Below, piece after piece: positions 29,558 to 59,501 of a stretch of DNA of 64,000 bases (its first letter is position 1; each line of letters begins with the position of its first letter). The DNA comes from a virus (lineage: Duplodnaviria > Caudoviricetes): the IMG/VR virus record IMGVR_UViG_2932675082_000001, positions 1-64,000 of that record. One strand, given 5' to 3'. Below the pieces are notes generated by a model. It was not told where the DNA came from and ran no database searches. It saw nothing but the letters and a program-made list of their open reading frames with translations. The position numbers and the translations under genes were made by a program.

Positions 29558-29588
29558 AAGAAAGCCCCTCACTGTGGAGGGGAGGCTT

Positions 29589-29967: not shown

Positions 29968-30193
29968 GATGACCAATGTACTCCGAACGAGGGATTTCGC
30001 ATCCCAGTTGGTGGCGTGTCGGTTGGTTAGCGGTTGGGTTCGGTCGGCGGTTCGGGTGCGGGGGTGGGTTGGGGCTGCTGTCCGTTGCCACTTGGCGTAG
30101 GCCATGATGGGCGTCTCCCTGCTCTGTGATGGGTGGTGGAGGGCCCGGGGCGGTCGGCTTGCTGGCAGGCGTGGTGACCGCCCCGGGGCGTGG

Positions 30194-36261: not shown

Positions 36262-36726
36262 TCAGGTGTTCTTCTTCTGGGACGGCCAGACCTCGTGCTC
36301 CCGATCCCACCACACCACGTGGAAGACATTGTCGACCAGGAACCCGTAGAGGCGCTGCCGGCCGCCGAATCGGAGCCGGGAGATCCGTGTCATGTCGTTG
36401 AGCTTCATCTCTGCGAGGCGCCCCAGTGCTTCCCGGTTCGGAAGCCTGTGCATGTCGTAGTGCTTCCCTGGCTCTTCGCCATTGAAGAACAGCTCTCGGA
36501 TCGTTTGTGTCTCGACCCCTGCCAGCTTGTCGAGCAGGAACCCCATCTCCTGTGGTGGCAGCTTGTCGATACCCCAGGGGCCGTCGTTGTCGACGTGCTG
36601 AAACCGCCAGCAGATCCGATCGCCAGAGTTGCGGGATCCGGGCAGGACCTTGTCGATGTCGCCCAGGGTCTTCTGGGCGGTGCGCTGCGCCGGTAAGCCC
36701 GCTACCCGCTTCTTGGTCGACTTCAC
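36262..36726 (-). CDS. putative toxin (RelE/ParE-fold-like) paired with the Panacea antitoxin
   Basis: ISRLRFGGRQRLYGFLVDNVFHVVWWDREHEV; overlaps the antitoxin stop (GTGA). Confidence 0.65.
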   Translation of the reverse strand: MKSTKKRVAGLPAQRTAQKTLGDIDKVLPGSRNSGDRICWRFQHVDNDGPWGIDKLPPQEMGFLLDKLAGVETQTIRELFFNGEEPGKHYDMHRLPNREALGRLAEMKLNDMTRISRLRFGGRQRLYGFLVDNVFHVVWWDREHEVWPSQKKNT

Positions 36727-37178
36727 GAGCCGGTGGCCGCGAGTGCCGCGAAGTAGTCTGCGATCTCCTCGTCTCGGAGCTGCTCGGTGCTTCGCTCTAG
36801 TTCCTGTGCGCCGGCGCGGGTACGCGCCATCTGCCAGGGGCCGGCCTCGTGGTGGCTGGCTTCGGAGAGCTGGTGGGCGCTGTAGCTGCCGAGCTTGTCG
36901 AGGACGATGTCGATGGACTCGCGCTGGTTTGGAGCGAGCCGGTCGGGGTCGCCGGAGATGTCGCCGGCGTCGAGGATGTAGCGCCGCCTGTGATCGGCAT
37001 ACAGGGCAGGAGCGACGGGCCCATTGGCCCAGGCCTCGAACGGTTCGGGAAACATCGGCTCGTCGTCCCACGCCAGGTGGTAGCCGTACGAGAAGTAGGT
37101 GAGCTTCTGGAGCTTCATTGCGGACATCGGGCCAGCTTTGGCCAGGATGTACGCGGCTACGTCGTGCACGCTTGCCAT
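36723..37178 (-). CDS. Panacea/DUF4065 (SocA/GepA-like) antitoxin
   Basis: DVAAYIL...MKLQKLTYFSYG...FEAWANGPV...LSEASHHEAGPW. Confidence 0.88.
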   Translation of the reverse strand: MASVHDVAAYILAKAGPMSAMKLQKLTYFSYGYHLAWDDEPMFPEPFEAWANGPVAPALYADHRRRYILDAGDISGDPDRLAPNQRESIDIVLDKLGSYSAHQLSEASHHEAGPWQMARTRAGAQELERSTEQLRDEEIADYFAALAATGS

Positions 37179-37876: not shown

Positions 37877-38110
37877 ATGGCTCACCGACTGAACGCCGAC
37901 AGCCTCCGCAAGGTGGCCGCCCGCGCAGGAGACACCACCGACTACCGCATCGCGAAGCGCTCAGGGCTGGCCCGCGCCACCCTCTCGCGCCTCGTCAACG
38001 GCCGCGTCGAACCCTCGGTCACGAACGTCATGCGACTCGCAACGTGCTACGGCGTCACCGTCGAATCGCTGCTGCGCCCGTTCGACTCCCCGGCCAACCT
38101 CGCCGCCTGA
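37877..38110 (+). CDS. Cro-like HTH protein
   Basis: IAKRSGLARATLSRLVNGRVEPS. Confidence 0.8.
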   Translation: MAHRLNADSLRKVAARAGDTTDYRIAKRSGLARATLSRLVNGRVEPSVTNVMRLATCYGVTVESLLRPFDSPANLAA

Positions 38111-38749: not shown

Positions 38750-39754
38750 ATGGGGATCCGACTGATGGTCGAGGTGCTGGACCACTGGCAGGACGCCGGC
38801 CTGACCGCGGGGGAGCGGTCGGATCTTCTCGTTGTGGCGGAGAACGCCAACGAGGTGAGCCGGGAGACCGTCGGTCCCATGCATGAGCCGTACCTGCTGA
38901 AGCGGGCGGGTAAGTCGTCGCCGGCGGCGTGGCGGAATGCGCTTGGCAAGCTGATGAAGAAGGGCGTGTTGGAGTACGCCGTTCATGACGGCCGTGAGAT
39001 GTCCGGCTTTCCGGGGCGGTGGGCGGTGTACCGACTCGTGGAGCTGTGCGCCGACGGTCCTCACGATGGTCTTCATGGCGAGTGCAGTCGTGGGGAGCGG
39101 GTCACCTCTCAGGTGACCCAATCCACGTCCGACGAGGCTCCATTGGGTCACCTCTCAGATGACCCAATCGCCGAAGCGGGTAACCCCACAGGTGACCCTT
39201 TCGGGGAAACGGGTCACCTCTCAGGTGCGAACGGGTCACCTGACAGATGCGAACGGGTCACCTCTCAGGTGACCCCTAACCCTCTAACCCCTCTTACCCC
39301 TCCCTCCCTACCGCCCGTCGGCGACGATCAACCGCCGGGGCGGGAGGGTGGGGGGACCGCCTCACGGCGGCACAACAACCCCGCCGCGTACAACGCCCTC
39401 GCCCGGATCGCCGCCAAGCACCCCCAGCTCGCCCTCGGCGAGACCGAACTCGCCGACCTCGCCCCGCTCGCGGAGTCCTGGCTGGAGCGCACCACCGAGA
39501 TCCGCATGGAGCTCGCCGTCACCGCCGGCCTACCCGATCAGGTCGTCAGCCCCGCCGGGTTCCTCCGCAGGCGCCTCGTCCAGAAGCTCCCCCCGCTGCT
39601 GCAGACCGTCCCCGACGAGGAACGCTGCGGCCGGCCGAACTGTGACCCGATCACCCACATGATCACCCTCCCCGACGGCGACCAGGCCTACTGCGCCGTC
39701 TGCCACCCCACCGGGCGCGCGATCGCCCGCCGAGCGCAAGGAAGTGCCGCATGA
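38750..39754 (+). CDS. replication initiator (lambda O-like organisation)
   Basis: upstream of DnaB; contains an internal iteron array. Confidence 0.7.
   Translation: MGIRLMVEVLDHWQDAGLTAGERSDLLVVAENANEVSRETVGPMHEPYLLKRAGKSSPAAWRNALGKLMKKGVLEYAVHDGREMSGFPGRWAVYRLVELCADGPHDGLHGECSRGERVTSQVTQSTSDEAPLGHLSDDPIAEAGNPTGDPFGETGHLSGANGSPDRCERVTSQVTPNPLTPLTPPSLPPVGDDQPPGREGGGTASRRHNNPAAYNALARIAAKHPQLALGETELADLAPLAESWLERTTEIRMELAVTAGLPDQVVSPAGFLRRRLVQKLPPLLQTVPDEERCGRPNCDPITHMITLPDGDQAYCAVCHPTGRAIARRAQGSAA
39099..39275. repeat. iteron array / putative replication origin
   Basis: six copies of GGGTCACCT-CTC-AGGTGACCC-like units at 39099, 39145, 39178, 39211, 39233, 39255. Confidence 0.8.
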
Positions 39755-41133
39755 GCGACCGCGAGCCCGACTTCGACCCGAGCTTCGAGCGGCAGCCGCC
39801 GCAGGACTTCCACGCCGAGCGGGGAAGCCTCGGCGCCCAGTTGATCTCCGCCCAGGCGATCGCCGATGTCCTCGGCACCGGGCTGCGCCCCGCCGAGTAC
39901 TACCGGCCCGCCCACGAGAAGATCCAGGAGGCGATCACCGCCCTGTACGCGGCCGGCGACCCCGCGGACCCGATCACCGTCGCCCGGCAGCTCACCATCA
40001 GCGGCGACCTGCCGCGCTGCGGTGGCCCTGCCTACCTCCACGACCTGGTCCAGGCCGCCCCGGCCCCGTCGAACGCCGAGTACTACGCCAACATCGTCCG
40101 GGAGAAGGCCCGGCTGCGGGCCATCGGCGTCGCCCTCAACCGCGGCTCCAACATGGTCGCTTCGGCGGAGGGCGACCCGACCGAGGTCATCGAGACGATC
40201 CAGGCCGAGATCATCGCCGCCGCTGGTGCTGGTGACATGCCCGGTGCGGGCATCGGCCTCGCCCCTGTCGCCGCCAGCCTGGAAGCCACCCTCGACGCGA
40301 TCGAGGCCGTCGACCAGGGCACCGTGCCTGTCGGAGCGCCGTGGGGCTTCAAGGATCTCGATGCGCTCACGGGCGGCATGCACCCCGGCCAGATGATCGT
40401 CATCGCGGGGCGGCCCGGGATGGGCAAGTCCACTGCGGGCATGGACATCGCCCGTTCCGCCGCGATCCGGCACGGTCTCGGCACGGCGTTCTTCTCGCTG
40501 GAGATGTCCCGTACCGAGATCATGAAGCGGATCATCTCTGCCGAGGGCCGGATCCCCTTGCACCACATGCAGACCCGCGGCGGCATGACCGACGACGACT
40601 GGAACCGCGCCGCGAAGACCCTGGAAGCCATCGCCCAGGCGCCGCTGTACCTCGACGACTCCCCGGACCTCACGATGACGTCCATCCGCACCAAGGCCCG
40701 GCAGATGGCCGCGGAGACCGAACTCAAGTTGATCGTCATCGACTACATGCAGCTGCTGCGCTCCGGCGGCGGCCAGCGCTACGAGTCCCGGCAGCAGGAG
40801 GTGTCCGACCTGTCCAGGTTGATCAAGCTGCTCGCGAAGGAGCTGGAGATCCCCGTCATCGCCCTGTCCCAGCTCAACCGCGGACCCGAGCAGCGCACCG
40901 ACAAGAAGCCGATGGCCGCAGACCTGCGCGAGTCCGGGGCGATCGAGCAGGACGCCGACCTGATCCTGTTGCTCCACCGGGAGGACGCCTACGACAAGGA
41001 GTCGGCGCGGGCCGGCGAGGCGGACTTCATCGTCGCGAAGAACCGGTCCGGGCCGACGTCGACCATCACCGTGGCGTTCCAGGGGCACTACTCGCGCTTC
41101 GTCGACATGGCCGCTGATCTTCGGGCAGCCTGA
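39751..41133 (+). CDS. dnaB: replicative DNA helicase
   Basis: AGRPGMGKS, FFSLEM, IVIDYMQL, LSQLNR, DLRESGAIEQDAD, KNRSG. Confidence 0.95.
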   Translation: MSDREPDFDPSFERQPPQDFHAERGSLGAQLISAQAIADVLGTGLRPAEYYRPAHEKIQEAITALYAAGDPADPITVARQLTISGDLPRCGGPAYLHDLVQAAPAPSNAEYYANIVREKARLRAIGVALNRGSNMVASAEGDPTEVIETIQAEIIAAAGAGDMPGAGIGLAPVAASLEATLDAIEAVDQGTVPVGAPWGFKDLDALTGGMHPGQMIVIAGRPGMGKSTAGMDIARSAAIRHGLGTAFFSLEMSRTEIMKRIISAEGRIPLHHMQTRGGMTDDDWNRAAKTLEAIAQAPLYLDDSPDLTMTSIRTKARQMAAETELKLIVIDYMQLLRSGGGQRYESRQQEVSDLSRLIKLLAKELEIPVIALSQLNRGPEQRTDKKPMAADLRESGAIEQDADLILLLHREDAYDKESARAGEADFIVAKNRSGPTSTITVAFQGHYSRFVDMAADLRAA

Positions 41134-43040: not shown

Positions 43041-43202
43041 CCAGCCCAGGAGGAAACCGTCAGGCGCCCACTCGATAGAGTGAAGTTGCAACGGCCGCAG
43101 ACCGGTTCGGGGATCGCAGCAAGTCAATCCCTGCGGCGCCCTGCTATGGTCCGGCCCGTTCCCCCCACCGCCACCCGGCGTCAGCAGATGGGAAGTTCTT
43201 TT

Positions 43203-44387
43203 ATGACCAGCGACGCCGTCGACCGTCTCCCCCAACGGGCCTTCCGGCTGATCGTCACCGGTGGCGGCACCGGTGGGCACACCTACCCTGCACTGACCGC
43301 GGTGCGCACCGCACGATCCAGGCTCGCCGCTGCCGGCCGTGGTCTGGACGTGCTGTGGGTCGGTACTCGAAACAGTCTGGAGTCGCGGGTCGCGGCGAGT
43401 GAGGGGATCGAGTTCGAGGCGGTTGCCACGGGAAAGATCCGACGCCACCGGAACCCACTCAAGATGGTCTCCCCGGCAAACGTTCGGGATATGGCGCGCG
43501 TGCCGCTCGGCGTCGCCCAGGCCCGCGCAGTGGTCTCCCGGTTCCGCCCTGACGTGGTGCTGGCCACGGGCGGATACGTCGCCGTGCCGGTGGGCATTGC
43601 CGCTTCACTGTGCCGCCGCCCGCTTGTCGTCCACGAGCAAACCGTGCGGCTGGGCCTGGCCAACCGGACGCTCGCAGGCCGGGCCGAGCGCATCGCGGTG
43701 TCATCCGAGTCCACGCTGTCGCTGCTGCCGGAGGCGTCCCGCTCGATCGCGGTCGTCACCGGCAACCCGGTGCGGCCCGAGGTACTGACCGGTGACGCGG
43801 ACAAGGCGATCCAGTCGCTCGGGCTGCACGGCTTCCACCGTGACCTGCCAACGGTGTACGTCACAGGCGGCGCGCAGGGATCGGAGCAGATCAACGGCCT
43901 GGTGGCCGAGGTGTTGCCGTGGCTGCTGACCGGCGCCAATGTGATCCACCAGTGCGGCCCGGCGAACGAGGAAGCCCTGCGCGCTCGCGCCGCGGGCCTT
44001 CCCGCAGAGCTCGCCGCCCGCTACTGGCTAACCGGGTTCGTCGGGCCCGAGCTGCCCGACGTCCTGGCGCTGGCCGATGTGGTGATCGCCCGCAGCGGCG
44101 CGGGGACGATCGCCGAGCTGACCGCCCTCGGCAAGGCCGCGGTTCTCATCCCCCTCGCCAGCTCGGCCGGCAACGAGCAGGCCCACAACGCGAGTCACCT
44201 GCAGGACGCCGGCGCAGCGGTCGCTCTTCTGGGTGACGTGACGCCTGACCGACTCCGGGACGCCATGGGGCCGCTGCTGGGCGACGTCGAGCAGCGCACG
44301 ACCGTCGCAGAACGGGCGCGTGCCTACGGCCGGCCGGACGCTGCCGACCGGCTGGTAGACGTGCTGTTCTCCGCCGCCTCGCACTGA
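43203..44387 (+). CDS. MurG-like GT28 glycosyltransferase (non-dcw paralog)
   Basis: GGGTGGH, TGGYV, HEQ, GNPVR, GGAQGS, ADVVIARSGAGTIAELTALGKAAVLIP, EQAHNA. Confidence 0.9.
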   Translation: MTSDAVDRLPQRAFRLIVTGGGTGGHTYPALTAVRTARSRLAAAGRGLDVLWVGTRNSLESRVAASEGIEFEAVATGKIRRHRNPLKMVSPANVRDMARVPLGVAQARAVVSRFRPDVVLATGGYVAVPVGIAASLCRRPLVVHEQTVRLGLANRTLAGRAERIAVSSESTLSLLPEASRSIAVVTGNPVRPEVLTGDADKAIQSLGLHGFHRDLPTVYVTGGAQGSEQINGLVAEVLPWLLTGANVIHQCGPANEEALRARAAGLPAELAARYWLTGFVGPELPDVLALADVVIARSGAGTIAELTALGKAAVLIPLASSAGNEQAHNASHLQDAGAAVALLGDVTPDRLRDAMGPLLGDVEQRTTVAERARAYGRPDAADRLVDVLFSAASH

Positions 44388-44402
44388 CGGGCGACTACGG
44401 AC

Positions 44403-44429
44403 GGGGCCCGAGGGCGCGCCTCGGACCCC
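44403..44429. terminator. hairpin between convergent genes
   Basis: GGGGCCCGAGG...CCTCGGACCCC. Confidence 0.45.
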
Positions 44430-44438
44430 AGTGTTCTC

Positions 44439-45089
44439 TCACGCGCCAGGGAGGTCCCTGGACAGTTCACGCGTCCAGTCGCCCCGATCGCCGAGGTCGG
44501 CATTGTCCCGGCTGAAATGGGTCACCGCGCCGGCTGCCTCCTGGGGGCGGGGCACGATCCGATCCAGGTGGGGCAGCGTGTCCGAGATGAGCAGCCGCCC
44601 GTGACGCATGCACCGGTCCCAGACGTCGCGGACCTCATCTACGTCGGGCCAGATGGAAAAGACCGCCTCGGCGAGCACCGGACCGGAGTCGATACCCGCG
44701 TCGATGACGTGGATCGTGATGCCGTGCAGATGCTCGCCATTGCGCAGAGCCCAGTTGACCGGCCGCACCCCCCGGTAGCCGGGCAGGCGGCCCGGGTGGC
44801 AGTTGATGATACGGCTAGTGGCGTCGATGAGCTCCGGTCCGATGATCTTGTCGTAGAGGACGCTGAACACCAGGTCGCAGCGCCCGGGTTCCAGATCCCG
44901 CCAGTCACCCGAGCGGAGGATGCGAGCCTCGGGGAAGCGTTCGACGGCGTAGTCGGACAAGCGGATGTCCCAGTCCGGCTCGACCGCGTTCGGGATCACC
45001 GTGTCCAGGACGACGCCGGGCATCGCAGCGATCGTCGCGCAGGCATGCGCGGCCAAGGCGCCCTTCCCGAGGACGGCCGCCCGCCTCAC
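44439..45089 (-). CDS. N10-formyl-THF-dependent (sugar) N-formyltransferase
   Basis: INCHPGRLPGYRG...GITIHVIDAGIDSGPVL. Confidence 0.88.
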   Translation of the reverse strand: MRRAAVLGKGALAAHACATIAAMPGVVLDTVIPNAVEPDWDIRLSDYAVERFPEARILRSGDWRDLEPGRCDLVFSVLYDKIIGPELIDATSRIINCHPGRLPGYRGVRPVNWALRNGEHLHGITIHVIDAGIDSGPVLAEAVFSIWPDVDEVRDVWDRCMRHGRLLISDTLPHLDRIVPRPQEAAGAVTHFSRDNADLGDRGDWTRELSRDLPGA

Positions 45090-46213
45090 TTCCCGCTCCC
45101 GGTCGCGGCCTTGAGCGCGGCGACGACGTGGCGCACGTCGTCATCGGTCATGTGCTGGTGGAACGGCAGCGTCAGGATCTCCCGGCCGACCTGCTCGGTG
45201 ACGGGCAGCTCCCGCCGCCACGAGGCGAATGCGGGCTGGAGGTGATTGGGCGGATAGTGGACGCCGACCGCAATGCCCGCGGCGAGCATGCGCCGGAACA
45301 CCTCCTCGCGGTCGGTGACCCGGACCACGCACAGATTCGGCACGGTGTGATCCACGTCCACGTCCACCAGCCTGGCGGCCGGCACGTCTCGCAGCGCGGA
45401 GCGGTAGGACCGCCACAGCTCCTGGCGGTTGACCTCAGTGGTCCGGAACTTGGGCAACTGGGCCAGGCCGATCGCCGCGTTGATCGAGGAGAGCTGGTAG
45501 CGCAGCCCGAAGCCCTCCACGCGGTAGGCGGTGGCGGCCTGTCGTTCCGCCTGCGATGAGACGACGCCGAGCAGCCGCAGCCGGCGGATCGCGGCGGCCT
45601 CTTCGGGCGTACGCGGGATGACCATGCCGCCCTGCCCGCACGTCAGGTTCTTGATCGGCCCGAAGGAGAAGCACGTTAGGTCGCCTGTGTTGCCGACTCG
45701 GACGGAGCCGGAGTAGGAGCCGAAGGCGTGCGCGGCGTCCTCGACGACGGCGATGCCCCGCCGGTCGAGCGTGTCGCGGATCTCGGTGAGGGCGACGGCC
45801 CGACCGCCGTACAGGACAGGCATCGCGGCCCGGGTGTCAGAGGTGAGGGCCTCCAGTACAGCGGCGGGCTCGATGCACAGGGTGTCCGGGTTCACCTCGA
45901 TGAAGCGGGGCACGGCACCGCAGGCCACGATGGCCTGGATCGTGGCGCAGAACGTCAGCGAGGGAACGATCACTTCGTGGCCAGGGCCGACGCCCGCGGC
46001 GAGCAGCGCGGTGTGCAGCGCGGCGGTGCCGGAGGTGACGGCCACCGCGTCCGGCACCCCGAGGAACGCGGCGACCTTCCGCTCGAACTCCTCGGTGACC
46101 TCGGTGTGCCCGTACTGGCCGCCCTGCAGCACCCGGGCGACCGCTTCGCCCTCGCCTCCGTAGAGGAACGGCGTCGCGTTGCGCCGGTAATCGGGTGTGG
46201 TGGTGGGGTTCAA
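45086..46213 (-). CDS. DegT/DnrJ/EryC1/StrS NDP-sugar aminotransferase
   Basis: SGTAALH, VEDAAHAFG, CFSFGPIKNLTCGQGG (PLP lysine), GVHY. Confidence 0.92.
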   Translation of the reverse strand: MNPTTTPDYRRNATPFLYGGEGEAVARVLQGGQYGHTEVTEEFERKVAAFLGVPDAVAVTSGTAALHTALLAAGVGPGHEVIVPSLTFCATIQAIVACGAVPRFIEVNPDTLCIEPAAVLEALTSDTRAAMPVLYGGRAVALTEIRDTLDRRGIAVVEDAAHAFGSYSGSVRVGNTGDLTCFSFGPIKNLTCGQGGMVIPRTPEEAAAIRRLRLLGVVSSQAERQAATAYRVEGFGLRYQLSSINAAIGLAQLPKFRTTEVNRQELWRSYRSALRDVPAARLVDVDVDHTVPNLCVVRVTDREEVFRRMLAAGIAVGVHYPPNHLQPAFASWRRELPVTEQVGREILTLPFHQHMTDDDVRHVVAALKAATGSGK

Positions 46214-46246
46214 CGCAGTTTCCTTTCCGTCGTTGCTTCGTGGCGG

Positions 46247-47257
46247 TCACACCGGGTGGTCGATGAGTTCAGGAATGGCCGGGACGGCTGGCTGGGCGGT
46301 GCGCAGGAGCGGCGCCCAGCGGTCGGGGTTGCGGCGGTACCAGTCAGCGGTCTCCGCGAGACCGTCCTCCAGCCCGCGCTCGGGGCAGTAGCCGAGGGCG
46401 GCGATCTTCGACCAGTTCAGGGCGTAGCGGAGATCGTTGGCAGCCCGGTCGGGAATGTAGTCCACGCAGTCCCAGCCGGCGTCGAACATCCGCAGCAGGA
46501 GGCCGGTCAGCTCCTTGCTGGTCAGGTCGGTGCCGCCCCCGATGTTGTAGACCTCGCCCGGGGTGCCGGCGCGCAGCACTAGTTCGATGCCCTGGCAGTT
46601 GTCCTCAACGTGGAGCCAGTTGCGCACGTGCTGGCCGCGCCCGTGAAGGGTCAGCCTGTGGCCCTTCAGCAGACGGGCGATGAACAGCGGGATGATCTTC
46701 TCGGGGTGCTGGCGGGGCCCGTAGTTGTTCGAGGAGCGGGTCACGCACACGGGAACGCCGAACGTCTGGAAGTAGGACAGCGCCACAAGGTCGCTGGCGG
46801 CCTTCGACGCGGCGTAGGGAACGCTGGGCCGGATCGGGTCCGTCTCGGCGGCCTGGCCAGTCAGGAGCGGCCCGTACACCTCGTCGGTGGACACGTGGAC
46901 GAACCGGCAAACGCCGGCCTTCCTGGCGGCCTCCAGCAGGGTGTAGGTGCCCAGGACGTTGGTCCCCAGGAAGCTCCCGGTGTCGTAGAACGAGCGGTCC
47001 ACGTGCGACTCGGCAGCGAAGTGCACGATCGCGGTGTGCTCCTGGGCGAGCCGCTCGACCAGCTGAGCATCGCAGATGTCGCCCCGGATGAACGTCAGCT
47101 TGGGCGACAGCATCGCCTCGCCCAGGTTCTCGACGCTCCCGGCGTACGTGAGAGCGTCGAGCACGGTCACCCGGGCCACGTCATCGGCGCGCAACAGGCG
47201 CCTGGCAAAGTGCGAGCCGATGAAGCCCGCACCGCCGGTGATCAGCACTTGTTCCAT
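46247..47257 (-). CDS. rfbB: dTDP-glucose 4,6-dehydratase
   Basis: ITGGAGFIG, HFAAESHVDRS, STDEVYG, YAASK, NNYGP.QHPEK. Confidence 0.92.
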   Translation of the reverse strand: MEQVLITGGAGFIGSHFARRLLRADDVARVTVLDALTYAGSVENLGEAMLSPKLTFIRGDICDAQLVERLAQEHTAIVHFAAESHVDRSFYDTGSFLGTNVLGTYTLLEAARKAGVCRFVHVSTDEVYGPLLTGQAAETDPIRPSVPYAASKAASDLVALSYFQTFGVPVCVTRSSNNYGPRQHPEKIIPLFIARLLKGHRLTLHGRGQHVRNWLHVEDNCQGIELVLRAGTPGEVYNIGGGTDLTSKELTGLLLRMFDAGWDCVDYIPDRAANDLRYALNWSKIAALGYCPERGLEDGLAETADWYRRNPDRWAPLLRTAQPAVPAIPELIDHPV

Positions 47258-47481
47258 GGCTGGACCCCTTTCCTCTCCACGTTGAGCTGGGGAGGACCGG
47301 CAAACGCCTCCCGTGGAGACAGGGAACCCGAGCACACGCAACTGACGCGATGTCAGATGGTGGTGAAATTTTGATGAAAGATGGGGCTGTCACCGGAAAT
47401 TCCGCAGTTCCTCGCTGTTGCCGAGCGTACCCATTTCGCTACTGTCAGGAGGTGCAGTAGTGGCAGACCCTGGGGGGCCTC

Positions 47482-48774
47482 ATGGGCAGGGCGAACGACA
47501 CGATCCGGCACCTACGCGAAGTCGAGTGGGACATGTCGCGCAAGGAGGCCGCGGAGTTCCTCGCGACCGAGGCGATCAAGATGGGCGAGCCGGTCTTCCT
47601 GGTCGCCCGGACGATTGCGACCTGGGAGGACGGCACGACCGCGTGGCCGAGGGCCAAGTACCGCCGGCTTCTCCACCGTGTGACCGGCCGGACCGCCACC
47701 GAGCTGGGCTTCACACCCCCGCCGTACAGGGGCCGGGCCACGGCTCCCGCAGCGGCCACATCGAAAGACGGTGACGAGGACGTGCGCCGACGCAGCGTAC
47801 TTCTGGGCGCCGGCGCCGCGCTGCTGACCGCCGCCGTCCCCCCGATCGCAGACTCCGGCCCCGCTCTGGGCCCCGACCACGTCCAAGCGCTCCAGGACGC
47901 CGAGCAGGCCCTGTACGCGCAGGACCGCGACCACGGCTCCGCCGACCTCGCGGGCCAGGCAAGCACCGCGTTGGACACCGCGCGCACCTGGCTGGCCCAC
48001 GGCCGCTACGACGATCAGCTCGGCCGCCAGCTCAACACCGCCACCGGCATGCTGTCCGTCGCCGCCGGCTGGCTCGCACTCGACAGCGGACGCACCAAGG
48101 ACGCCCGGTCGCTGTACACCGAAGCCCTCGCCAGCGCCCGGCAGGCCGACGACCCCGGCCTGGAAGCACACGCGTTCTCGTGCCTGTCCCTCCTCGCCCA
48201 CGCCGCCGGCCGACCGCGCGAGGCCGTCGGCAACGCCCAGGTGGCGCAGCGCGCCGCCGCCGGGCTCGGCTCGCCGCGCTGGCTCGCGCTCCTGGCGATG
48301 CGGGAGGCCCGCGGCTGGGCGCTCCAGGGGGACCGCACGCTGACTGAGCAGGCGCTGGTGCGGGCCTACGACCTGTACTCGAAGGGTCCACGGGACGCCG
48401 ATCCCGACTGGCTGGAGTTCTTCGTCCCCGCCGAACTGGCCGGCCTGGAGTCGCTGTGCCGGGCCGATCTCGGCCAGCTCGACCGGGCGTGCGCCGGCGC
48501 CGAGCAGGCGGTAATGCTCTTCGCCCAGGGCCACGCCCGCAACCGGGCGCTGTACACCGCCGACATCGCGCTCCACCAGGCACGCCGCGAGCGGCCCGAC
48601 CTCGACGCCGCCACCGACGCCGGCCACCGCACCCTCGCCTACTTGAAGGACGTCCGCTCCAAGCGGCTGCTCGCTTCCCTGCACGGCATCGCCAATTCAC
48701 TGGAATACCACCGCGAAGTGCCGTGCGTGGCCCGCTACCTCCACGCCTACCGAACCGCCGTCCCCGTTGCCTGA
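47482..48774 (+). CDS. XRE-like HTH plus TPR-like helical regulator
   Basis: N-terminal RTIATWEDG helix region; AAGWLALDSG...ARSLYTEALASA helical repeats typical of actinomycete regulators. Confidence 0.75.
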   Translation: MGRANDTIRHLREVEWDMSRKEAAEFLATEAIKMGEPVFLVARTIATWEDGTTAWPRAKYRRLLHRVTGRTATELGFTPPPYRGRATAPAAATSKDGDEDVRRRSVLLGAGAALLTAAVPPIADSGPALGPDHVQALQDAEQALYAQDRDHGSADLAGQASTALDTARTWLAHGRYDDQLGRQLNTATGMLSVAAGWLALDSGRTKDARSLYTEALASARQADDPGLEAHAFSCLSLLAHAAGRPREAVGNAQVAQRAAAGLGSPRWLALLAMREARGWALQGDRTLTEQALVRAYDLYSKGPRDADPDWLEFFVPAELAGLESLCRADLGQLDRACAGAEQAVMLFAQGHARNRALYTADIALHQARRERPDLDAATDAGHRTLAYLKDVRSKRLLASLHGIANSLEYHREVPCVARYLHAYRTAVPVA

Positions 48775-48784
48775 AGGACCCCTC

Positions 48785-49354
48785 ATGGCCTTGCCCGCCA
48801 CGTCGTTGCCCATACGGCGCCATGGAGCCGACGGCACCATCGCCCTGCTGGACACTCTCACCGACATCTGGGCCCACGCCCACACCGGTCACGACGACGT
48901 CGCCGAGGCCGGCTTCACCCCCGAGACCCTGCGCCGCCAGATCACCGCGCACACCCGCCATGACGGCTTCGCGCTCATCGTGGCCTCCTCGACCGACCAG
49001 GCCGTCGGCTTCGGCTACGGCTTCCGGTGCACCCCCGCCTACTGGTACGGCGAACAGCTTCTGCCGGCCATCACGTCAGACGCCCGCGACACCGACTCCC
49101 TCGCCGGCATCTGTGAACTCGCCGTCCGACCTGACTGGCAGGGCCAAGGCGTCGGCTCCCGCCTCCACGCCGCGCTGCTGGAGGCGCTGGACACCGAATG
49201 GGTGTCGCTTCTCGTGATGCCGGGCAACGGCCCGGCCCGGAGGCTTTACGATCGCCTGGGGTACCGGTACGCCGGCCCCTACCGCCCCGGACCGGACGGA
49301 CCGGAGCTCGACCTCCTCCTGCTCCGCACGCCTTCGGCCCCAAGCGCGCCCTGA
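48785..49354 (+). CDS. GNAT N-acetyltransferase
   Basis: ELAVRPDWQGQGVGSRL...NGPARRLYDRLGY. Confidence 0.88.
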   Translation: MALPATSLPIRRHGADGTIALLDTLTDIWAHAHTGHDDVAEAGFTPETLRRQITAHTRHDGFALIVASSTDQAVGFGYGFRCTPAYWYGEQLLPAITSDARDTDSLAGICELAVRPDWQGQGVGSRLHAALLEALDTEWVSLLVMPGNGPARRLYDRLGYRYAGPYRPGPDGPELDLLLLRTPSAPSAP

Positions 49355-49428
49355 CTGGCGGCATCTGGGCACGCACAGCAGTCCGACGTCCTTGCTACGG
49401 TAAACGAGCATCGACAACGGGGGGTGTG

Positions 49429-51039
49429 ATGACAGAGTTCCACGTCAAGCCGGTAGACATGATCCTCTCGTCTGCCGGCTTCTCCGACCTGCACACCAGC
49501 GCCGTCCAGCTCTACCGGAGCCTGGTGTTCTCCATGGACGACGTAGCGGGCATGGCCGGAGACGACGACGCCGGCAAAAAATTCGCGGCCAAGTACGACC
49601 CCGCCGCGCAGAAACTCGTCGACGCGATGGCCCAGGTGTCGGGTCAGCTCGGTGGAACCGCCAACGGCTTGTACACGATGGCGATCAACTACCTCCAGAG
49701 CGACGCCGACGTGGCCGCCGCGATGATGGCACCGCAGAAGCTGCCGGAGTCCAGCGACCCCGAATGCGACGAAGAGGTGGCCAAAGCCAAGCTGCACTCC
49801 GCGGCCGGCCACAACAACAGCAGCGCAGTCCATGACTTCCTCAAGAAGTTCTGGCCGCAGGGCGATCCGGACAAGCTCCGCAAAGCCGCGACATACTGGA
49901 AGAACTTCGCCTCTCTCCTCAGCCGACTGGGCACGGAGGGCGACAAGTTCGTCCAGCAGGTCACCGTGTCCAGCACCTCCAGCGCCGTGACCTCCTTCAG
50001 CGAGAACTGGGCGAAGGTGCACGACGGCTGCGCCACCGAGGGGCCGCTTCTCAACAGCATGACGAACGCGGCCTACAAGCTCGGGCAAGCCTGCGAGGCC
50101 TACGCGAAGGACGTCGAGGATCTGCAGGACAAGCTGGAGGACCTCGCCATCGGTGCTGGGCTCATCGCCGGCGCCGGGCTCCTCCTGACCGTTTTCACCC
50201 TCGGCGGCTCCGACGTCGCGGCCGCCGGCGGGGAAGCGGCCATCGCAGCCGAAGCCAGCACCGCGGCCGTCGCCATGGCCACCGCGGTCGAAGGCAGCGC
50301 GGAACTCGCCGTGCTCGCCGAGGCCGCGGCCGTCGTCGACACCGCCGCGGCGAACCTCATCCCCATCGGAGCCGCGGCGACCGCCACGGCGACCACCGCC
50401 GTCGTCCTGGCCGGCGCGACCGACGCCGCCGCGGCACCGACTCCCAAGCCGCCGCCGTTCACGGTCACCCCCGGCATGCCTCCGCTGCCCCATGACCCGA
50501 CCAGCCCGTTCCCCGTGCTCCCGCCGGCGCAGCAGGCGGCGATCCGGGCGTGGATGGCGCAGATGGAGCAGGACGGGCGCACCTTCCCCGCCAATGGCCC
50601 CCATGCGCCCAAGCCGCCCGAGAAGCCGGACCCGAAGATCAATGCGCGGCGCGCCTACCAGGTGAGGGTCGCGGGCTCGACGGAGTACCGGCTTTACACC
50701 ACCGTCAAGGAGCCGGACACCGGGCGCGAGCTGGGCATGGACGCCGACGGCGTCCGGCCGGAGGATGGTGCAGCGATCGACGCCAAGTACATCGGCCAGC
50801 AGAAGAGCTGCAAGTCGCCGTTCCGCCTGGACAACGCGGACGGGATGTTCGAACTCGCTTACAACAACACCATGGTGGGTGAGTCGAAGAAGCTGGAAAA
50901 GTATGCTTCGGCGCTGCAGGATCCCCGTAACAAGGTCAATCATGTCGAACTCATCACCAACGACGCCAAGGCCAGCAGCTACTTTCAGGCCCTGATGGCG
51001 GCCCAGGGCATCACCGGCCGCGTCCGCATCGAACCCTAA
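49429..51039 (+). CDS. WXG100-like polymorphic toxin with C-terminal restriction-endonuclease-fold domain (Tox-REase-2-like)
   Basis: MAGDDDAGKKFAAKY, WPQGDPDKLRKAA.YW N-terminus; C-terminal YQVRVAG..EY...ADGVRPEDGAAIDAKY...ELITND. Confidence 0.8.
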   Translation: MTEFHVKPVDMILSSAGFSDLHTSAVQLYRSLVFSMDDVAGMAGDDDAGKKFAAKYDPAAQKLVDAMAQVSGQLGGTANGLYTMAINYLQSDADVAAAMMAPQKLPESSDPECDEEVAKAKLHSAAGHNNSSAVHDFLKKFWPQGDPDKLRKAATYWKNFASLLSRLGTEGDKFVQQVTVSSTSSAVTSFSENWAKVHDGCATEGPLLNSMTNAAYKLGQACEAYAKDVEDLQDKLEDLAIGAGLIAGAGLLLTVFTLGGSDVAAAGGEAAIAAEASTAAVAMATAVEGSAELAVLAEAAAVVDTAAANLIPIGAAATATATTAVVLAGATDAAAAPTPKPPPFTVTPGMPPLPHDPTSPFPVLPPAQQAAIRAWMAQMEQDGRTFPANGPHAPKPPEKPDPKINARRAYQVRVAGSTEYRLYTTVKEPDTGRELGMDADGVRPEDGAAIDAKYIGQQKSCKSPFRLDNADGMFELAYNNTMVGESKKLEKYASALQDPRNKVNHVELITNDAKASSYFQALMAAQGITGRVRIEP

Positions 51040-51082
51040 CCGGGCATACGGCCCGCACCACCGACAGAAAGCCGAGCACACC

Positions 51083-51454
51083 ATGGGATCCAGCTTCTAC
51101 GTCAGCGCCGGCCCCGAGCACGGCGGGCCGTGGGACTTCACCGCCGACCAGGTGAAGGAATCCGTGCGACGGCACTGGCCGGATGCCATGGTCAGCGGCG
51201 TGTTCGAGGACTTCCTGGAGATCGAAGCGGAGGTCGAACCCGGCCTGCGAGCAGAGTTGTCGTACAACTACCGGTACGGCGCCTTCTCGTTCGCGGATCG
51301 GGAGCCACTGTCCGCACCCTTGACCGTCATTTACCGGGTGCTGTGCGATCTGGCGCCGCGGGTACCTGTCGTGTGGTGGGCCGACTACGACGGGGAACTG
51401 ACGCCGATGAACTTGGATGACGGGCTCGACCAGTTCCTCGGACGCTTCGCGTAA
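51083..51454 (+). CDS. putative cognate immunity protein
   Basis: small acidic/aromatic ORF immediately after the toxin. Confidence 0.65.
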   Translation: MGSSFYVSAGPEHGGPWDFTADQVKESVRRHWPDAMVSGVFEDFLEIEAEVEPGLRAELSYNYRYGAFSFADREPLSAPLTVIYRVLCDLAPRVPVVWWADYDGELTPMNLDDGLDQFLGRFA

Positions 51455-57804: not shown

Positions 57805-59409
57805 TCAGGCGGCTGCCTGGAGGTCTTCGCCGGTGATGGACTCGACTAGGGCGGACATCAGCACCTCGGCGGCGGGCGGGGTGACGGCGTTGCCGTACTG
57901 GCGGACCTGCTCGCGCTTGTTGCCGAGCACGGTGTAGTCGGTGCCGAACGCCATGGCGGCGCCGATCTCGCGCGGGCTGAGCATCCGAAACAGGCACTCC
58001 TCGACGTCGAGGTCGGGGGAGACCAGGGCGTGTCGGTCGACCGTGGTGACCGTGGGGGCGGGCTGGTCGGTCGGGCGGGCGGTGCCGTTGCCGTAGTACG
58101 GGACGAGCAGGCCCTCGGTCTCGCGGGTGGTCCGGGCGCGGAACGGCTCGCGCACGGGCCGGGCTTCGTCGTTCCAGGTGCCGCCCGCGGGGACGAGCAT
58201 CGGCCAGCTGACGAGGGACTGGTGTCCGGCGGTGGTCAGGGTCCGGAGCGGTTCGGTGGCCGGGGTGCAGTGCTCGCCGCCGTTGCCGGTGGAGCTGTTG
58301 TTCCGCATGACCATCGCGGCTGCGGGGTGGACGAGGCCGTGGTGGTTGCCGGAGGCGCACACGGTGGCGAGCGGGTCGGAGGCGGGCCGGTGGTCGGAGC
58401 CGCCGCCGCGGAGTTCGGCGAGGAAGGGTTCGAACCAGGCGAGGCTGGTCTCGTTGCGGGTGGTCATGGTCCGCAGCGGGTCGTCGACCGGGGCGGCGTT
58501 CTTGCCCTCGCGGCCTTCGACGGGGACGGCGAGGGGGCGGGCGTACTTGGCGAGGCCGGCGCGGATGCGGGCGAGGGTCTTGGCGGCGAGGGGCTTGGTG
58601 CGGTCGCCGATGCGCTGGCCGGGCTGGGTCCAGTCGATCGCGGCGGCCGCGGGGAGAGCCCAGGGTTCGACGACGGCCCAGCAGCCGGGGACGGGGCAGC
58701 GGTAGACGTACTGGGCGCGGTAGCGGCCCCATTCGCGGTCGGGGTTCTTCCAGGACTGGACGGCCTGGACGCGCCCGTGCTCGGGGCAGATGGCGTCGGG
58801 GCGGGTCCACTTCTCGACCTGGGGGGCGCGGTTGCCCTTGAGCCAGTACATGACGTACATGCGGTCGCGGGACTGGGGGGCGAGCGGGGTGCCGAACCTC
58901 GGCCTGGCGTGCATGGAGTTGAGGTAGACGAGCCGCATGTCGTAGCCGAGGGCGCGGATGGCCATGCACCAGGCGTCGAACAACGCCCAGTTGCGGGCGT
59001 CGACGACGTTCTCGACGACGCCGCCGAGGACGGGCCGGCCCCGCAGGCTCATGGCTTCGAGGTAGCGGGGGACGTCCCACATGGTGGCGCGGGAGCGGAC
59101 GGCGGCTTCCTCGGGGAGAACCTCGCCGAACAGGTCGGGCTGGCGGTCGGCGCCGCGCTTGACGCCCTTGGCGACGGAGTGGTTGGTGCACTCGGGGCTG
59201 GCCCAGAGGAGGTCGGTGCGGGGGTAGCGGCGGAAGTCGATCTGGCTGATGTCGGCGCAGTCGTGGCGGACGTCGGGGAAGTTGTGCTGGTGGGTCTGGA
59301 CGGCGAGGTCCCAGTGGTTGGCGGCGGTGGCGACCTGGAGGCCGGGGATGTTGTGCATGCCCTGGCTGGAACCTCCGGCGCCGCAGAAGAAGTCGGTGAC
59401 GGTGAGCAT
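57805..59409 (-). CDS. C5 cytosine DNA methyltransferase (orphan)
   Basis: DFFCGAGG (motif I), ASPEC (IV), ENV (VI), QSRDR (VIII), YGNAV (X). Confidence 0.92.
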   Translation of the reverse strand: MLTVTDFFCGAGGSSQGMHNIPGLQVATAANHWDLAVQTHQHNFPDVRHDCADISQIDFRRYPRTDLLWASPECTNHSVAKGVKRGADRQPDLFGEVLPEEAAVRSRATMWDVPRYLEAMSLRGRPVLGGVVENVVDARNWALFDAWCMAIRALGYDMRLVYLNSMHARPRFGTPLAPQSRDRMYVMYWLKGNRAPQVEKWTRPDAICPEHGRVQAVQSWKNPDREWGRYRAQYVYRCPVPGCWAVVEPWALPAAAAIDWTQPGQRIGDRTKPLAAKTLARIRAGLAKYARPLAVPVEGREGKNAAPVDDPLRTMTTRNETSLAWFEPFLAELRGGGSDHRPASDPLATVCASGNHHGLVHPAAAMVMRNNSSTGNGGEHCTPATEPLRTLTTAGHQSLVSWPMLVPAGGTWNDEARPVREPFRARTTRETEGLLVPYYGNGTARPTDQPAPTVTTVDRHALVSPDLDVEECLFRMLSPREIGAAMAFGTDYTVLGNKREQVRQYGNAVTPPAAEVLMSALVESITGEDLQAAA

Positions 59410-59501
59410 GTGTTGGGCTCCTGTGGTTGGCGTGGCGGGCCCGTGGACGCCTGTTCGGGCGCTCGGGCGGGTTCGTGGTCCGGTGCGGTGCTGCGGGGCC
59501 G

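What the first reader, a model, noticed from the sequence alone, without database searches (positions are those of the whole stretch)
43203..47257. Prophage cassette for an N-formylated amino-deoxysugar convergent with a MurG paralog
Seen: an operon of dTDP-glucose 4,6-dehydratase, DegT aminotransferase and N-formyltransferase, converging on a stand-alone GT28 enzyme that keeps all MurG motifs. Known: this three-enzyme sequence makes dTDP-4-formamido-4,6-dideoxyhexose (Qui4NFo-type), and MurG normally adds GlcNAc to lipid I. Inference: the GT may transfer the formamido sugar onto lipid I or another polyprenyl-linked acceptor. That could remodel the wall or receptor (superinfection exclusion, lysin resistance), poison lipid II cycling, or glycosylate a small molecule. 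No thymidylyltransferase, flippase or polymerase is present, so this is not a normal O-antigen or teichoic acid locus. I do not recognise it as a described phage system.
Basis: partly seen in the sequence, partly recalled or inferred. Interest (0 to 1): 0.85.

Follow-up and report, generated by a model that had tools for sequence, protein, structure and literature searches.

The report
Phage-borne MglA wall enzyme with amino-sugar genes
A prophage of a Streptomyces-like bacterium carries a known back-up enzyme for making the cell-wall precursor lipid II, joined to three genes that make a formylated amino-deoxysugar; the two parts travel together in many genomes, which hints that the enzyme may also put this sugar on the wall.

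Summary
The genes are GT28 at 43203-44387 (+), converging on formyltransferase, DegT aminotransferase and dTDP-glucose 4,6-dehydratase at 44439-47257 (-). They lie inside an IMG/VR provirus of 77.6 kb.

The GT is not an orphan MurG paralog. It belongs to the MglA family, the published alternative lipid II synthase. It is 74% identical to a Kitasatospora gene that matches the published mglA primers, and 31% identical to a housekeeping-type MurG of K. purpeofusca. MglA-like genes occur in 143 of 401 Streptomycetaceae genomes.

The four genes form one 4.2-kb block, 87% identical in DNA to a Streptomyces chromosome.

I found no paper describing the linkage:
- Cassette-type DegT occurs in 37 of 401 genomes and lies beside mglA in every resolvable case (33 intact, 2 truncated, 2 at contig breaks).
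- About three quarters of mglA genes stand alone.
- The N-acylating enzyme is swapped between a formyltransferase and ATP-grasp ligases.
- GT motifs are invariant and do not track the cassette.

Best reading (0.45): MglA also transfers the cassette's sugar to lipid I. Main rival (0.3): it is a plain lipid II synthase.

This is a new variant of a known kind.

The parts
43069..47311 (.). Limits of the mobile four-gene block (DNA homology to chromosomal copies)
   Evidence: window 43133-47311 aligns in a single piece of 4,189 bp at 87.1% identity to L120 (G163, a 7.6-Mb chromosome). Window 43069-47266 aligns at 82.1% over 4,223 bp to L006 (K. purpeofusca). Nothing outside these limits aligns.
43203..44387 (+). 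MglA-family GT28 glycosyltransferase (MurG-like, 394 aa)
   Evidence: It has PF03033 and PF04101. It is 74% identical over 379 aa to the L090 ORF that matches the published mglA primers, and 31% identical to the other, MurG-like match in K. purpeofusca (L087). A GGGAAG motif lies 8 nt upstream of the ATG.
44403..44429 (.). GC-rich hairpin between the convergent genes; possible two-way terminator
   Evidence: Searches show the stem GGGG-CCCGAGG/CCUCGG-CCCC. It is not better than shuffled sequence (z -0.17), and the consensus scan found no terminator. This part is weak.
44439..45089 (-). N-formyltransferase (216 aa), last gene of the sugar operon
   Evidence: PF00551 matches and the catalytic-type stretches align to PurN. 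No equivalog cut-off is reached: the dTDP-Qui4N formyltransferase model PRK07579 scores 39.4 against a cut-off of 238.
45086..46213 (-). DegT/DnrJ/EryC1-type PLP sugar aminotransferase (375 aa)
   Evidence: PF01041 scores 325 bits. The best solved relatives are ArnB (196 bits) and WbpE. No equivalog cut-off is reached. There is a 4-nt stop/start overlap with the formyltransferase gene.
46247..47257 (-). dTDP-glucose 4,6-dehydratase (RmlB type, 336 aa from the ATG at 47257)
   Evidence: TIGR01181 scores 377.5, above its cut-off of 365.1. It scores 358.6 bits to DesIV (1R66). The stretches GGAGFIGS, TDEVYG and YAASK are present in the translation.
47258..47481 (.). Divergent intergenic region between the sugar operon and the regulator gene
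   Evidence: Gene map. No sigma-70-type consensus was found, but that scan does not cover actinomycete promoter types.
47482..48774 (+). NsdA-family HTH/TPR regulator; conserved in position but divergent in sequence
   Evidence: NF053720, 272 bits, cut-off 75; phrog_10886. A regulator of this kind, 28-32% identical, sits at the same place in L002, L023, L030, L039, L068, L098, L102, L116, L118 and L120. HTH-TPR proteins sit there in L031, L092 and L115. It lies outside the DNA homology block.

Best explanation
The locus is a 4.2-kb mobile module that a temperate siphophage of a Streptomycetaceae host picked up whole from actinomycete chromosomes. It holds (i) an MglA-family GT28 enzyme and (ii) an operon that turns host-made dTDP-glucose into a dTDP-4-formamido-4,6-dideoxyhexose, by dehydratase, then C4 aminotransferase, then N10-formyl-THF-dependent formyltransferase.

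Shown here:
- the gene identities
- transfer of the four genes as one block
- the one-way linkage: the cassette is always beside mglA, but mglA is mostly without the cassette
- the swapping of the N-acylating enzyme

Inferred:
- MglA is the transferase that the cassette depends on. It makes ordinary lipid II from UDP-GlcNAc, as published for K. viridifaciens.
- When the cassette is present, it also places the 4-acylamido-6-deoxy sugar on lipid I.
- That sugar has no 4-OH, so such a unit could not accept a growing glycan chain. It would sit only at the non-reducing end of strands.
- This would change the wall surface that phages, lysins and glycosidases meet.
- In the lysogen this would act as lysogenic conversion (superinfection exclusion or lysin resistance), under the neighbouring NsdA-type regulator.
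For: MglA membership:
- The GT is 74% identical to the L090 ORF. The 3' end of that ORF matches the published mglA reverse primer with 1 mismatch in 27 nt, and its N-terminus reads RLIVTGG as in the forward primer.
- It is 31% identical to the second, MurG-like match in K. purpeofusca, against the published 31.2% between MglA and MurG.
- MglA-like genes occur in 143 of 401 Streptomycetaceae genomes, 36%, against the published 38%.

Transfer as a block:
- GT, FT, DegT and RmlB are 88, 90, 89 and 90% identical to those of G163.
- They align to G163 as one DNA piece at 87% identity.

Linkage:
- 37 of 401 genomes hold a cassette-type DegT (57% identity or more). In 33 an intact GT lies convergent within 800 bp. 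In 2 a truncated GT is adjacent. In 2 both genes sit at contig ends. None is in a genome without mglA.
- FT relatives of 68% identity or more have the GT adjacent in 15 of 16 loci. The exception, L113, is a 50-residue fragment.
- Adjacency survives rearrangement. In L111 the four genes all lie on one strand in the order RmlB, DegT, FT, GT. L109 keeps only a truncated FT with the GT on the same strand. In L099 and L112 the FT lies on the other side of the GT.
- No other gene cluster beyond regulators, LMW-PTP and genus-specific chromosomal neighbours recurred in the cassette-bearing loci.
- The provirus has no GT2 or GT1 match.

Diversified N-acyl step:
- Among the 80 GT-centred loci, 9 carry FT and 14 carry one of two ATP-grasp ligase types. 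This is what I would expect of a surface-exposed sugar.

Mobile-element carriage:
- 4 of 4 other resolvable IMG/VR contigs that have mglA also carry the cassette: L115 and L116 with FT, L092 and L117 with ATP-grasp.
- In L117 a tape-measure gene lies within 4 kb.
- For comparison, about 25% of chromosomal mglA genes have the cassette.

Donor supply:
- RmlA is present elsewhere in 4 of 5 cassette-bearing genomes.
Against: - A published family member gives wild-type peptidoglycan on its own (PMC8092295), so UDP-GlcNAc is a proven donor and no other donor is known.
- The MurG-type motif stretches I checked, including the donor-side ones, are invariant in 95 family members. No alignment column separates cassette-bearing GTs from cassette-less ones. 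The best balanced accuracy is 0.76, at variable positions.
- Cassette states are interleaved on the GT tree. The AU test rejects cassette-bearing GTs as one clade (p = 3.6e-44; tree).
- A dTDP-6-deoxy-4-acylamido-hexose differs from UDP-GlcNAc in the nucleotide and at C2, C4 and C6.
- In most loci the GT and the sugar operon converge, so they are not co-transcribed.
- The cassette often decays while the GT stays whole. There are 6 partial cassettes, and 5 of the 49 loci without sugar genes (45 cassette-less, 4 at contig edges) keep remnants.
- One genome (G029, L118) keeps an intact cassette beside a truncated GT.
- There are no expression data and no biochemistry for this copy.
Confidence: 0.45

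Rival explanations
1. The GT is only a back-up lipid II synthase that uses UDP-GlcNAc, as published for MglA. The sugar cassette feeds some other host transferase, for example one for a wall glycopolymer or for protein O-glycosylation. The two parts stay together only because they move as one block.
For: - MglA function is published (PMC8092295).
- GT motifs are invariant whatever the cassette state.
- About 75% of mglA genes stand alone. Five of five such genomes tested have no cassette elsewhere.
- The GT survives loss of the cassette.
- The orientation is convergent.
Against: - No cassette was found away from mglA in 401 genomes.
- Linkage persists through rearrangements of order and strand, and across families including Amycolatopsis and Sphaerisporangium.
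- No second transferase recurs in the neighbourhoods.
- None of the GT families searched is present in the provirus.
- Pure hitch-hiking predicts cassette-only loci, and at most one was seen (L118).
Confidence: 0.3
2. The GT does use the cassette's sugar, but on an acceptor other than lipid I: a wall teichoic-type linkage unit, a membrane glycolipid, a virion or host protein, or a small molecule (drug or toxin inactivation).
For: - The linkage evidence is the same as for the best explanation.
- A related phage has the GT right after its endolysin (L114). That is late-gene company, which would suit virion or lysis-time glycosylation.
Against: - The GT28 N-terminal domain (PF03033) is highly conserved across the family, including the primer-matched mglA-type gene whose close published relative acts on lipid I.
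- No acceptor-side divergence goes with the cassette.
Confidence: 0.12
3. The block is neutral or decaying cargo in this prophage, with no role in lysogeny or infection.
For: - Partial and remnant cassettes are frequent elsewhere.
- At 87% DNA identity to the nearest chromosomal copy, the capture is not recent.
Against: - All four reading frames are whole and align full-length to homologues.
- GC3 of 0.83-0.91 is typical of coding sequence in this genome.
- The module occurs in at least four other contigs of IMG/VR's viral collection.
Confidence: 0.1

Closest known systems
MglA, alternative lipid II synthase of Kitasatospora viridifaciens (BOQ63_RS12640; Zhang et al., mBio 2021, PMC8092295)
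   Same: - Both have the two GT28 domains.
- The window's GT is 74% identical to a Kitasatospora gene that matches the published primers.
- It is about 31% identical to a MurG-like second match in K. purpeofusca and is not next to cell-division genes in the window.
- The family is found in about 36% of Streptomycetaceae genomes.
   Different: - Here the gene is fused into one mobile block with a deoxy-amino-sugar operon and sits in a prophage.
- The primer-matched mglA-type locus has no such genes within 8 kb (L093), and its genome G092 has none anywhere.
- The words dTDP, aminotransferase and formyl do not occur in the paper's main text. Its supplements could not be seen.
- The activity of this copy is untested.
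MurG (E. coli, PDB 1F0K/1NLM; equivalog TIGR01133)
   Same: It has the same GT-B two-domain family and the G-loop, GGY and C-terminal nucleotide-sugar motifs.
   Different: - It is 31-33% identical and falls below the equivalog cut-off (225.5 against 250.25).
- Three substitutions hold across the whole MglA family: HEQT, GGAQG and RSGAGT.
- It is mobile and patchily distributed rather than universal.
dTDP-4-formamido-4,6-dideoxyhexose (Qui4NFo-type) pathways of O-antigens and of M. tuberculosis Rv3402c/Rv3404c (names recalled; Rv3404c structure 4PZU and a dTDP-4-amino-4,6-dideoxyglucose formyltransferase 6V33 appear)
   Same: The same three-step logic applies: RmlB-type dehydratase, DegT-type C4 aminotransferase, and PurN-fold N-formyltransferase.
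   Different: - The formyltransferase is only distantly related to the solved sugar formyltransferases (E = 5e-7 to 4e-6).
- There is no O-antigen, Wzx/Wzy or teichoic acid machinery nearby.
- In sister loci the formyl step is replaced by ATP-grasp ligases.
Phage lysogenic-conversion glycosylation modules (for example gtrABC O-antigen modification) and actinobacteriophage virion glycosylation operons (recalled; only listings citing virion glycosylation were seen)
   Same: These are also phage-borne sugar-transfer genes, placed at accessory-gene sites, that change what other phages or antibodies see.
   Different: - The transferase family is different (GT28 MurG-like).
- The acceptor is presumably a peptidoglycan precursor.
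- The module is shared with host chromosomes as a self-contained block.

Membership tests
MglA (alternative lipid II synthase) family | Two MurG domains, PF03033 and PF04101 | tested here: met
   101.2 and 98.3 bits, both above their cut-offs.
MglA (alternative lipid II synthase) family | Distant from housekeeping MurG (about 31% identity) and encoded outside the dcw cluster | tested here: met
   31% identity to the second, MurG-like match in K. purpeofusca (L087); I did not check that gene's neighbours for dcw genes. The window's neighbours are phage genes, not cell-division genes.
MglA (alternative lipid II synthase) family | Close sequence relationship to the characterised K. viridifaciens protein | tested here: met
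   The GT is 74% identical over 379 aa to an ORF whose end matches the published reverse primer (1 mismatch in 27 nt) and whose start reads RLIVTGG as in the forward primer. Caveat: the K. viridifaciens sequence itself was not in hand.
MglA (alternative lipid II synthase) family | Makes lipid II and complements murG | not testable with these tools
   This needs genetics or biochemistry. It is published only for the K. viridifaciens protein.
MurG equivalog (TIGR01133) | Score at or above the curated cut-off | tested here: not met
   225.5 bits against 250.25.
dTDP-glucose 4,6-dehydratase (TIGR01181) | Score at or above the curated cut-off, and close to solved RmlB/DesIV | tested here: met
   377.5 against 365.1; 358.6 bits to 1R66.
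dTDP-4-amino-4,6-dideoxyglucose (or -galactose) transaminase equivalogs | Score at or above a curated cut-off that would fix the substrate and the C4 stereochemistry | tested here: not met
   the best scores are PseC 255.8/423.5, ArnB 233.6/631, PRK11706 196.9/375 and WecE 143.7/434.9. Only the superfamily PF01041 is met, so whether the product has the gluco or galacto configuration stays open.
Sugar N-formyltransferase (dTDP-Qui4N type, PRK07579) | Score at or above the curated cut-off | tested here: not met
   39.4 against 238. The PF00551 fold and the catalytic-type stretches are present. The substrate is inferred from the operon context only.
Known anti-phage defence systems (PADLOC-DB 2.0) | Any component matches a defence-system model | tested here: not met
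   no match for the four proteins, the regulator or five neighbours.

The most novel reading that the evidence does not exclude
MglA-family enzymes may be two-donor lipid I glycosyltransferases. With the cassette they would build a lipid II analogue that carries a 4-acylamido-4,6-dideoxyhexose in place of GlcNAc. That sugar lacks a 4-OH, so the unit cannot be extended and would end up only as a cap on the non-reducing end of peptidoglycan strands. The N-acyl group of the cap would be diversified (formyl, or groups added by ATP-grasp ligases, perhaps amino acids) in an arms race with phages. Phages themselves would spread the module to re-label their host's wall.
Probability: 0.22. Interest if true: 0.9.

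Novelty: new variant of a known kind. Interest (0 to 1): 0.62.

Why it matters
MglA is so far known only as a puzzling spare lipid II synthase found in about a third of streptomycetes.

A dTDP-4-acylamido-6-deoxyhexose cassette was found only beside mglA in the genomes searched. Its acylating enzyme is swapped between lineages, and phages carry the pair. Together these facts give a concrete, testable idea of what the family may be for: programmed chemical marking of peptidoglycan or its precursors.

If that is right, it would be a new kind of wall modification made at the lipid II step, and a new route of lysogenic conversion in antibiotic-producing actinomycetes.

If it is wrong, the locus is still a clear case of a phage carrying a cell-wall precursor enzyme as cargo.

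Tried and rejected
1. I considered that the sugar derives from UDP-GlcNAc (a bacillosamine-like product), which would suit a MurG-type donor site. I rejected this because the dehydratase passes the dTDP-glucose equivalog cut-off and scores 358.6 bits to DesIV. The aminotransferase does look most like UDP-sugar enzymes, with ArnB and PseC on top, but these are below their cut-offs.

2. I looked for specificity-determining positions in the GT, comparing cassette-bearing with cassette-less copies and FT-type with ATP-grasp-type loci. There are none between cassette-bearing and cassette-less GTs. In the FT-type against ATP-grasp-type comparison the best column reaches 0.89, outside the motif stretches examined.

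3. I asked whether cassette-less mglA genomes hide the cassette elsewhere. They do not in 5 of 5 genomes: the best DegT is 32-40% identical, and FT-like hits are 35-44% identical. The one exception is a 44-residue remnant beside the GT of G031.

4. A search for the K. viridifaciens gene with the forward-primer pattern gave 4 unrelated hits. The reverse-primer pattern then worked in 4 of 167 Kitasatospora genomes.

5. GenBank phage records (INPHARED) hold no MglA-family member. All 24 records with a match are 27.6-35.4% identical, and DNA matches are trivial.

6. PADLOC gave no match.

7. No RNA holder was listed for the stretch, so nothing can be said about expression.

8. The promoter and terminator consensus scans found nothing. 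The inter-gene hairpin is no better than shuffled sequence.

9. Rfam found nothing at gathering thresholds.

10. The AU test of FT-type GTs against ATP-grasp-type GTs did not finish in time.

11. I did not fold the GT. A model would only have repeated the sequence alignment to MurG.

Full report
**1. What is there**

The window is 70% G+C. It is bases 1-64000 of an IMG/VR provirus record of 77,619 bp with a CheckV completeness of 90. I called genes by third-position G+C.

The layout of the record is:
- Late genes lie on the minus strand from about 2.5 to 37 kb. They include a GH25 lysin, a tape-measure protein, an SU10-like capsid protein, portal and large terminase.
- A plus-strand block runs from 37.9 to 51.4 kb. 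It opens with a Cro/C1-type HTH gene and carries a DnaB helicase, DUF4326 and phrog_26381.
- The finding follows within that block.
- Next come an NsdA-family regulator, a GNAT and a WXG100/Tox-REase-2 protein.
- Minus-strand early-type genes run from 51.7 to 74 kb. They include a C5 methylase, a second DnaB-like protein, ERF and YqaJ. A serine integrase lies at the right end.

The cassette therefore lies well inside the element, at the far end of an early-type operon. That is a usual place for accessory genes.

**2. The four genes**

- **GT28**, 43203-44387 (+). It carries both MurG domains but scores below the murG equivalog cut-off (225.5 against 250.25).
- **Formyltransferase**, 44439-45089 (-).
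- **DegT aminotransferase**, 45086-46213 (-). Its stop overlaps the formyltransferase start by 4 nt.
- **RmlB-type dehydratase**, 46247-47257 (-). It passes the dTDP-glucose 4,6-dehydratase cut-off (377.5 against 365.1) and scores 358.6 bits to DesIV of S. venezuelae.

The block has no ketoisomerase or reductase, so the plain product is a dTDP-4-formamido-4,6-dideoxyhexose. The C4 configuration is open, because no aminotransferase equivalog cut-off is reached.

The provirus has no NTP_transferase, GT2 or GT1-family match. RmlA (TIGR01207) is found elsewhere in 4 of 5 cassette-bearing genomes tested, and the fifth has a partial match below the cut-off. The long-form model was not met in any of the 5.

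**3. The GT is an MglA**

It has thousands of close relatives: 7,767 of 8,000 scored candidates pass the E-value limit, and the 120 listed are 74-88% identical. They are mostly from Streptomyces and Kitasatospora.

Zhang et al. (mBio 2021, PMC8092295; abstract and passages read) showed the following:
- K. viridifaciens MglA is 31.2% identical to MurG.
- It makes lipid II and gives wild-type peptidoglycan.
- It replaces murG in two genera.
- Orthologues are present in 38% of Streptomyces and Kitasatospora genomes.

I could not fetch that protein directly, so I used the paper's primers. The reverse-primer pattern matches 4 of 167 Kitasatospora genomes with one mismatch. The intact ORF at one of these places (L090) begins ...RLIVTGG, as in the forward primer, and is 74% identical to the window's GT over 379 residues.

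The second, MurG-like match in K. purpeofusca is 31% identical to the window's GT. In a sample of 401 Streptomycetaceae genomes, 143 (36%) hold a relative at E <= 1e-80.

Aligned to E. coli MurG, the G-loops and the C-terminal nucleotide-sugar motif are kept. Three substitutions hold across the whole MglA family: HEQT, GGAQG and RSGAGT.

**4. One block, moved whole**

- The GT, FT, DegT and RmlB are 88, 90, 89 and 90% identical to a chromosomal set in G163.
- The DNA aligns to G163 as a single piece, window 43133-47311, at 87% identity.
- It aligns at 82% over 43069-47266 to K. purpeofusca, where the block lies 3.3 kb downstream of polA.
- Nothing outside these limits aligns.
- None of the window's DnaB, DUF4326, phrog_26381, portal, terminase or capsid queries matched any of the 80 related genome loci.

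The phage therefore holds a copy of a chromosomal module. At 87% identity the capture is not recent.

**5. Linkage, seen from the GT side**

Among the 80 best genome loci (out of 311 relatives found):
- 25 carry sugar genes next to the GT. Nine have the formyltransferase, 14 have an ATP-grasp ligase instead, and 2 have only DegT or RmlB.
- 6 carry only a low-molecular-weight phosphatase gene.
- 4 are cut by a contig end.
- 45 have neither.
- Nineteen cassettes are complete and 6 are partial.
- Of the 49 loci without sugar genes (the 45 cassette-less and the 4 at contig edges), 5 keep a 3' fragment of FT or DegT right behind an intact GT.

Neighbourhoods are otherwise very variable. Five cassette-less genomes have no cassette elsewhere. 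These include G092, which holds the primer-matched mglA-type gene.

The GT therefore has a life of its own, which fits the published lipid II synthase role.

**6. Linkage, seen from the cassette side**

This is the main new result.
- In the 401-genome sample, a cassette-type DegT (57-89% identical) is found in 37 genomes.
- In 33 of them an intact GT lies convergent, with gaps between the matched stretches of 57 to 766 bp (my reading of the coordinates).
- In 2 (G029, G317) a truncated GT is adjacent.
- In 2 (G080, G061) both genes sit at the ends of different contigs.
- No genome without an mglA match has the DegT.
- A separate search centred on the formyltransferase gave 19 loci. Fifteen of the 16 with a match of 68% identity or more have the GT adjacent. 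The exception is a 50-residue fragment. The three more distant FTs (44-65% identical) have no GT nearby.

Adjacency survives rearrangement. In L111 all four genes lie on one strand. L109 keeps only a truncated FT with the GT on the same strand. In L099 and L112 the FT is on the other side of the GT. The linkage reaches Amycolatopsis and Sphaerisporangium.

The dependence runs one way: the cassette is never without the GT, but the GT is often without the cassette. That is what would be expected if the cassette's product needs this transferase.

**7. What argues against donor switching**

- On a tree of 95 family members, cassette states are interleaved.
- The AU test rejects cassette-bearing GTs as one clade, with a log-likelihood difference of 772.6 and p = 3.6e-44. 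The group was defined from neighbourhood data, but I named it after seeing the first tree.
- No alignment column separates GTs with and without the cassette. The best balanced accuracy is 0.76, at variable positions.
- 93 of 394 columns are invariant, including most positions of the MurG-type motif stretches examined.

If MglA uses the dTDP-sugar, then the whole family must already tolerate both donors. The family-wide Gly in RSGAGT (Leu in E. coli MurG, Met in the K. purpeofusca MurG-like protein) might give room. That is conjecture, and I could not measure it.

**8. Phage carriage recurs**

- GenBank phage records hold no family member.
- An alignment-based scan of IMG/VR found five further contigs.
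- L115 and L116 have the FT-type cassette.
- L092 and L117 have the ATP-grasp type.
- In L114 the GT sits at the contig end, so what follows it is unknown.
- In L117, a contig of 259,646 bp, a tape-measure gene lies within 4 kb.
- In L114 the GT follows an endolysin, and the tail proteins are 40-50% identical to this prophage's.
- L116 has a DnaB-like and an FtsK/SpoIIIE-like gene nearby, so it may be a conjugative element rather than a phage.
- The flanks of L115 and L092 were not clearly viral in what I checked.

Counting the window, 5 of 5 resolvable mobile-element copies carry the cassette, against about 25% (35 of 143) of chromosomal mglA genes. These copies may not be independent of one another.

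L117 fits that description, and I checked only its gene content.

**9. Reading**

Firm conclusions:
- The module is a mobile mglA gene plus a dTDP-4-acylamido-6-deoxyhexose operon.
- It has a positionally conserved but divergent HTH/TPR regulator next to it.
- A temperate phage carries it.

Best-supported mechanism (0.45): MglA is the cassette's transferase as well as a lipid II synthase. The sugar has no 4-OH, and glycan polymerisation adds onto the 4-OH of the incoming unit's GlcNAc (established peptidoglycan chemistry). Such a unit could therefore only start a strand, giving a capped non-reducing end. The swapping of formyl for groups added by ATP-grasp ligases looks like the diversification expected of a surface-exposed feature.

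Main rival (0.3): a plain spare lipid II synthase, with the sugar going elsewhere.

Minor rivals: another acceptor (0.12), or inert cargo (0.1).

**10. Literature**

Searches for MglA with lipid II synthase, for MurG-like with dTDP, Streptomyces and aminotransferase, and for MurG, prophage and formyltransferase found no paper that describes this linkage or a phage-borne mglA. In one search no listed paper holds 'MurG-like'. The MglA paper's main text never mentions dTDP, aminotransferase or formyl.

One listed paper reports a staphylococcal phage protein, Gp11, that blocks cell division by inhibiting peptidoglycan synthesis, and its text mentions MurG 54 times (PMC11237401; title and the start of the abstract only). 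That MurG is its target is my recollection. Phages thus have reasons to meddle with this step.

**Verdict.** This is a new variant of a known kind.

Noticed in passing
window 27872-29572 (-) and 29895-29977 (-): A phage-borne TROVE (Ro60-like) protein has an 83-nt ARAGORN 'tRNA-Ser (act)' call about 320 bp upstream of it on the same strand. Bacterial Ro proteins are known to pair with Y-RNA-like RNAs that carry a tRNA-like module (recalled), so this may be one. Rfam found nothing at gathering thresholds.
   Followed up: partly
window 48767-51454 (+): A GNAT acetyltransferase (48767-49354) is followed by a 613-aa WXG100-like/Tox-REase-2 polymorphic-toxin-type protein (49198-51039) and a small ORF (51083-51454) that could be its immunity gene. 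They lie just downstream of the regulator, inside the prophage.
   Followed up: no
window 39751-41133 (+) and G000 64369-65673 (-) (L094 2369-3673): The provirus record has two DnaB-type helicase genes, in oppositely oriented early-type blocks. The record may be a composite of two elements, or a phage with an inverted early module.
   Followed up: partly
window 36723-37178 (-) and 37877-38110 (+): A SocA/Panacea antitoxin-domain protein lies near a Cro/C1-type HTH gene at a divergent junction. This is probably the immunity/switch region of the phage.
   Followed up: no
L020, L021, L023, L031, L034, L036, L039, L060, L064, L119 (between GT and DegT); L026, L062, L070, L074, L075, L079 (GT only): A low-molecular-weight phosphotyrosine-phosphatase-family gene (PF01451) sits right behind the GT in many ATP-grasp-type cassettes. 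It also sits there in 6 loci that have no sugar genes. Its role is unknown.
   Followed up: partly
L031 10718-11725 (-); L002 10474-11700 (-): Two different ATP-grasp ligases take the place of the formyltransferase in sister cassettes. One is PylC-like/ATPgrasp_Ter and the other is L-amino-acid-ligase-like. This suggests N-aminoacyl or other N-acyl variants of the same 4-amino sugar.
   Followed up: partly
L114 6800-11158 (IMG/VR contig of 47.5 kb): A phage whose tail proteins are 40-50% identical to this prophage's carries the mglA-type gene at another site, just after its endolysin. The contig ends there, so what follows is unknown.
   Followed up: partly
L088, L089, L091 (Kitasatospora genomes G007, G088, G124): At three of the four places that match the mglA reverse primer, the frame that ends at that stop is open for only 36, 250 and 169 codons. 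These may be frameshifted or truncated mglA copies, or assembly errors.
   Followed up: no
window 57805-59547 (-): A 580-aa protein carries a C5 cytosine DNA methylase domain in the early region.
   Followed up: no
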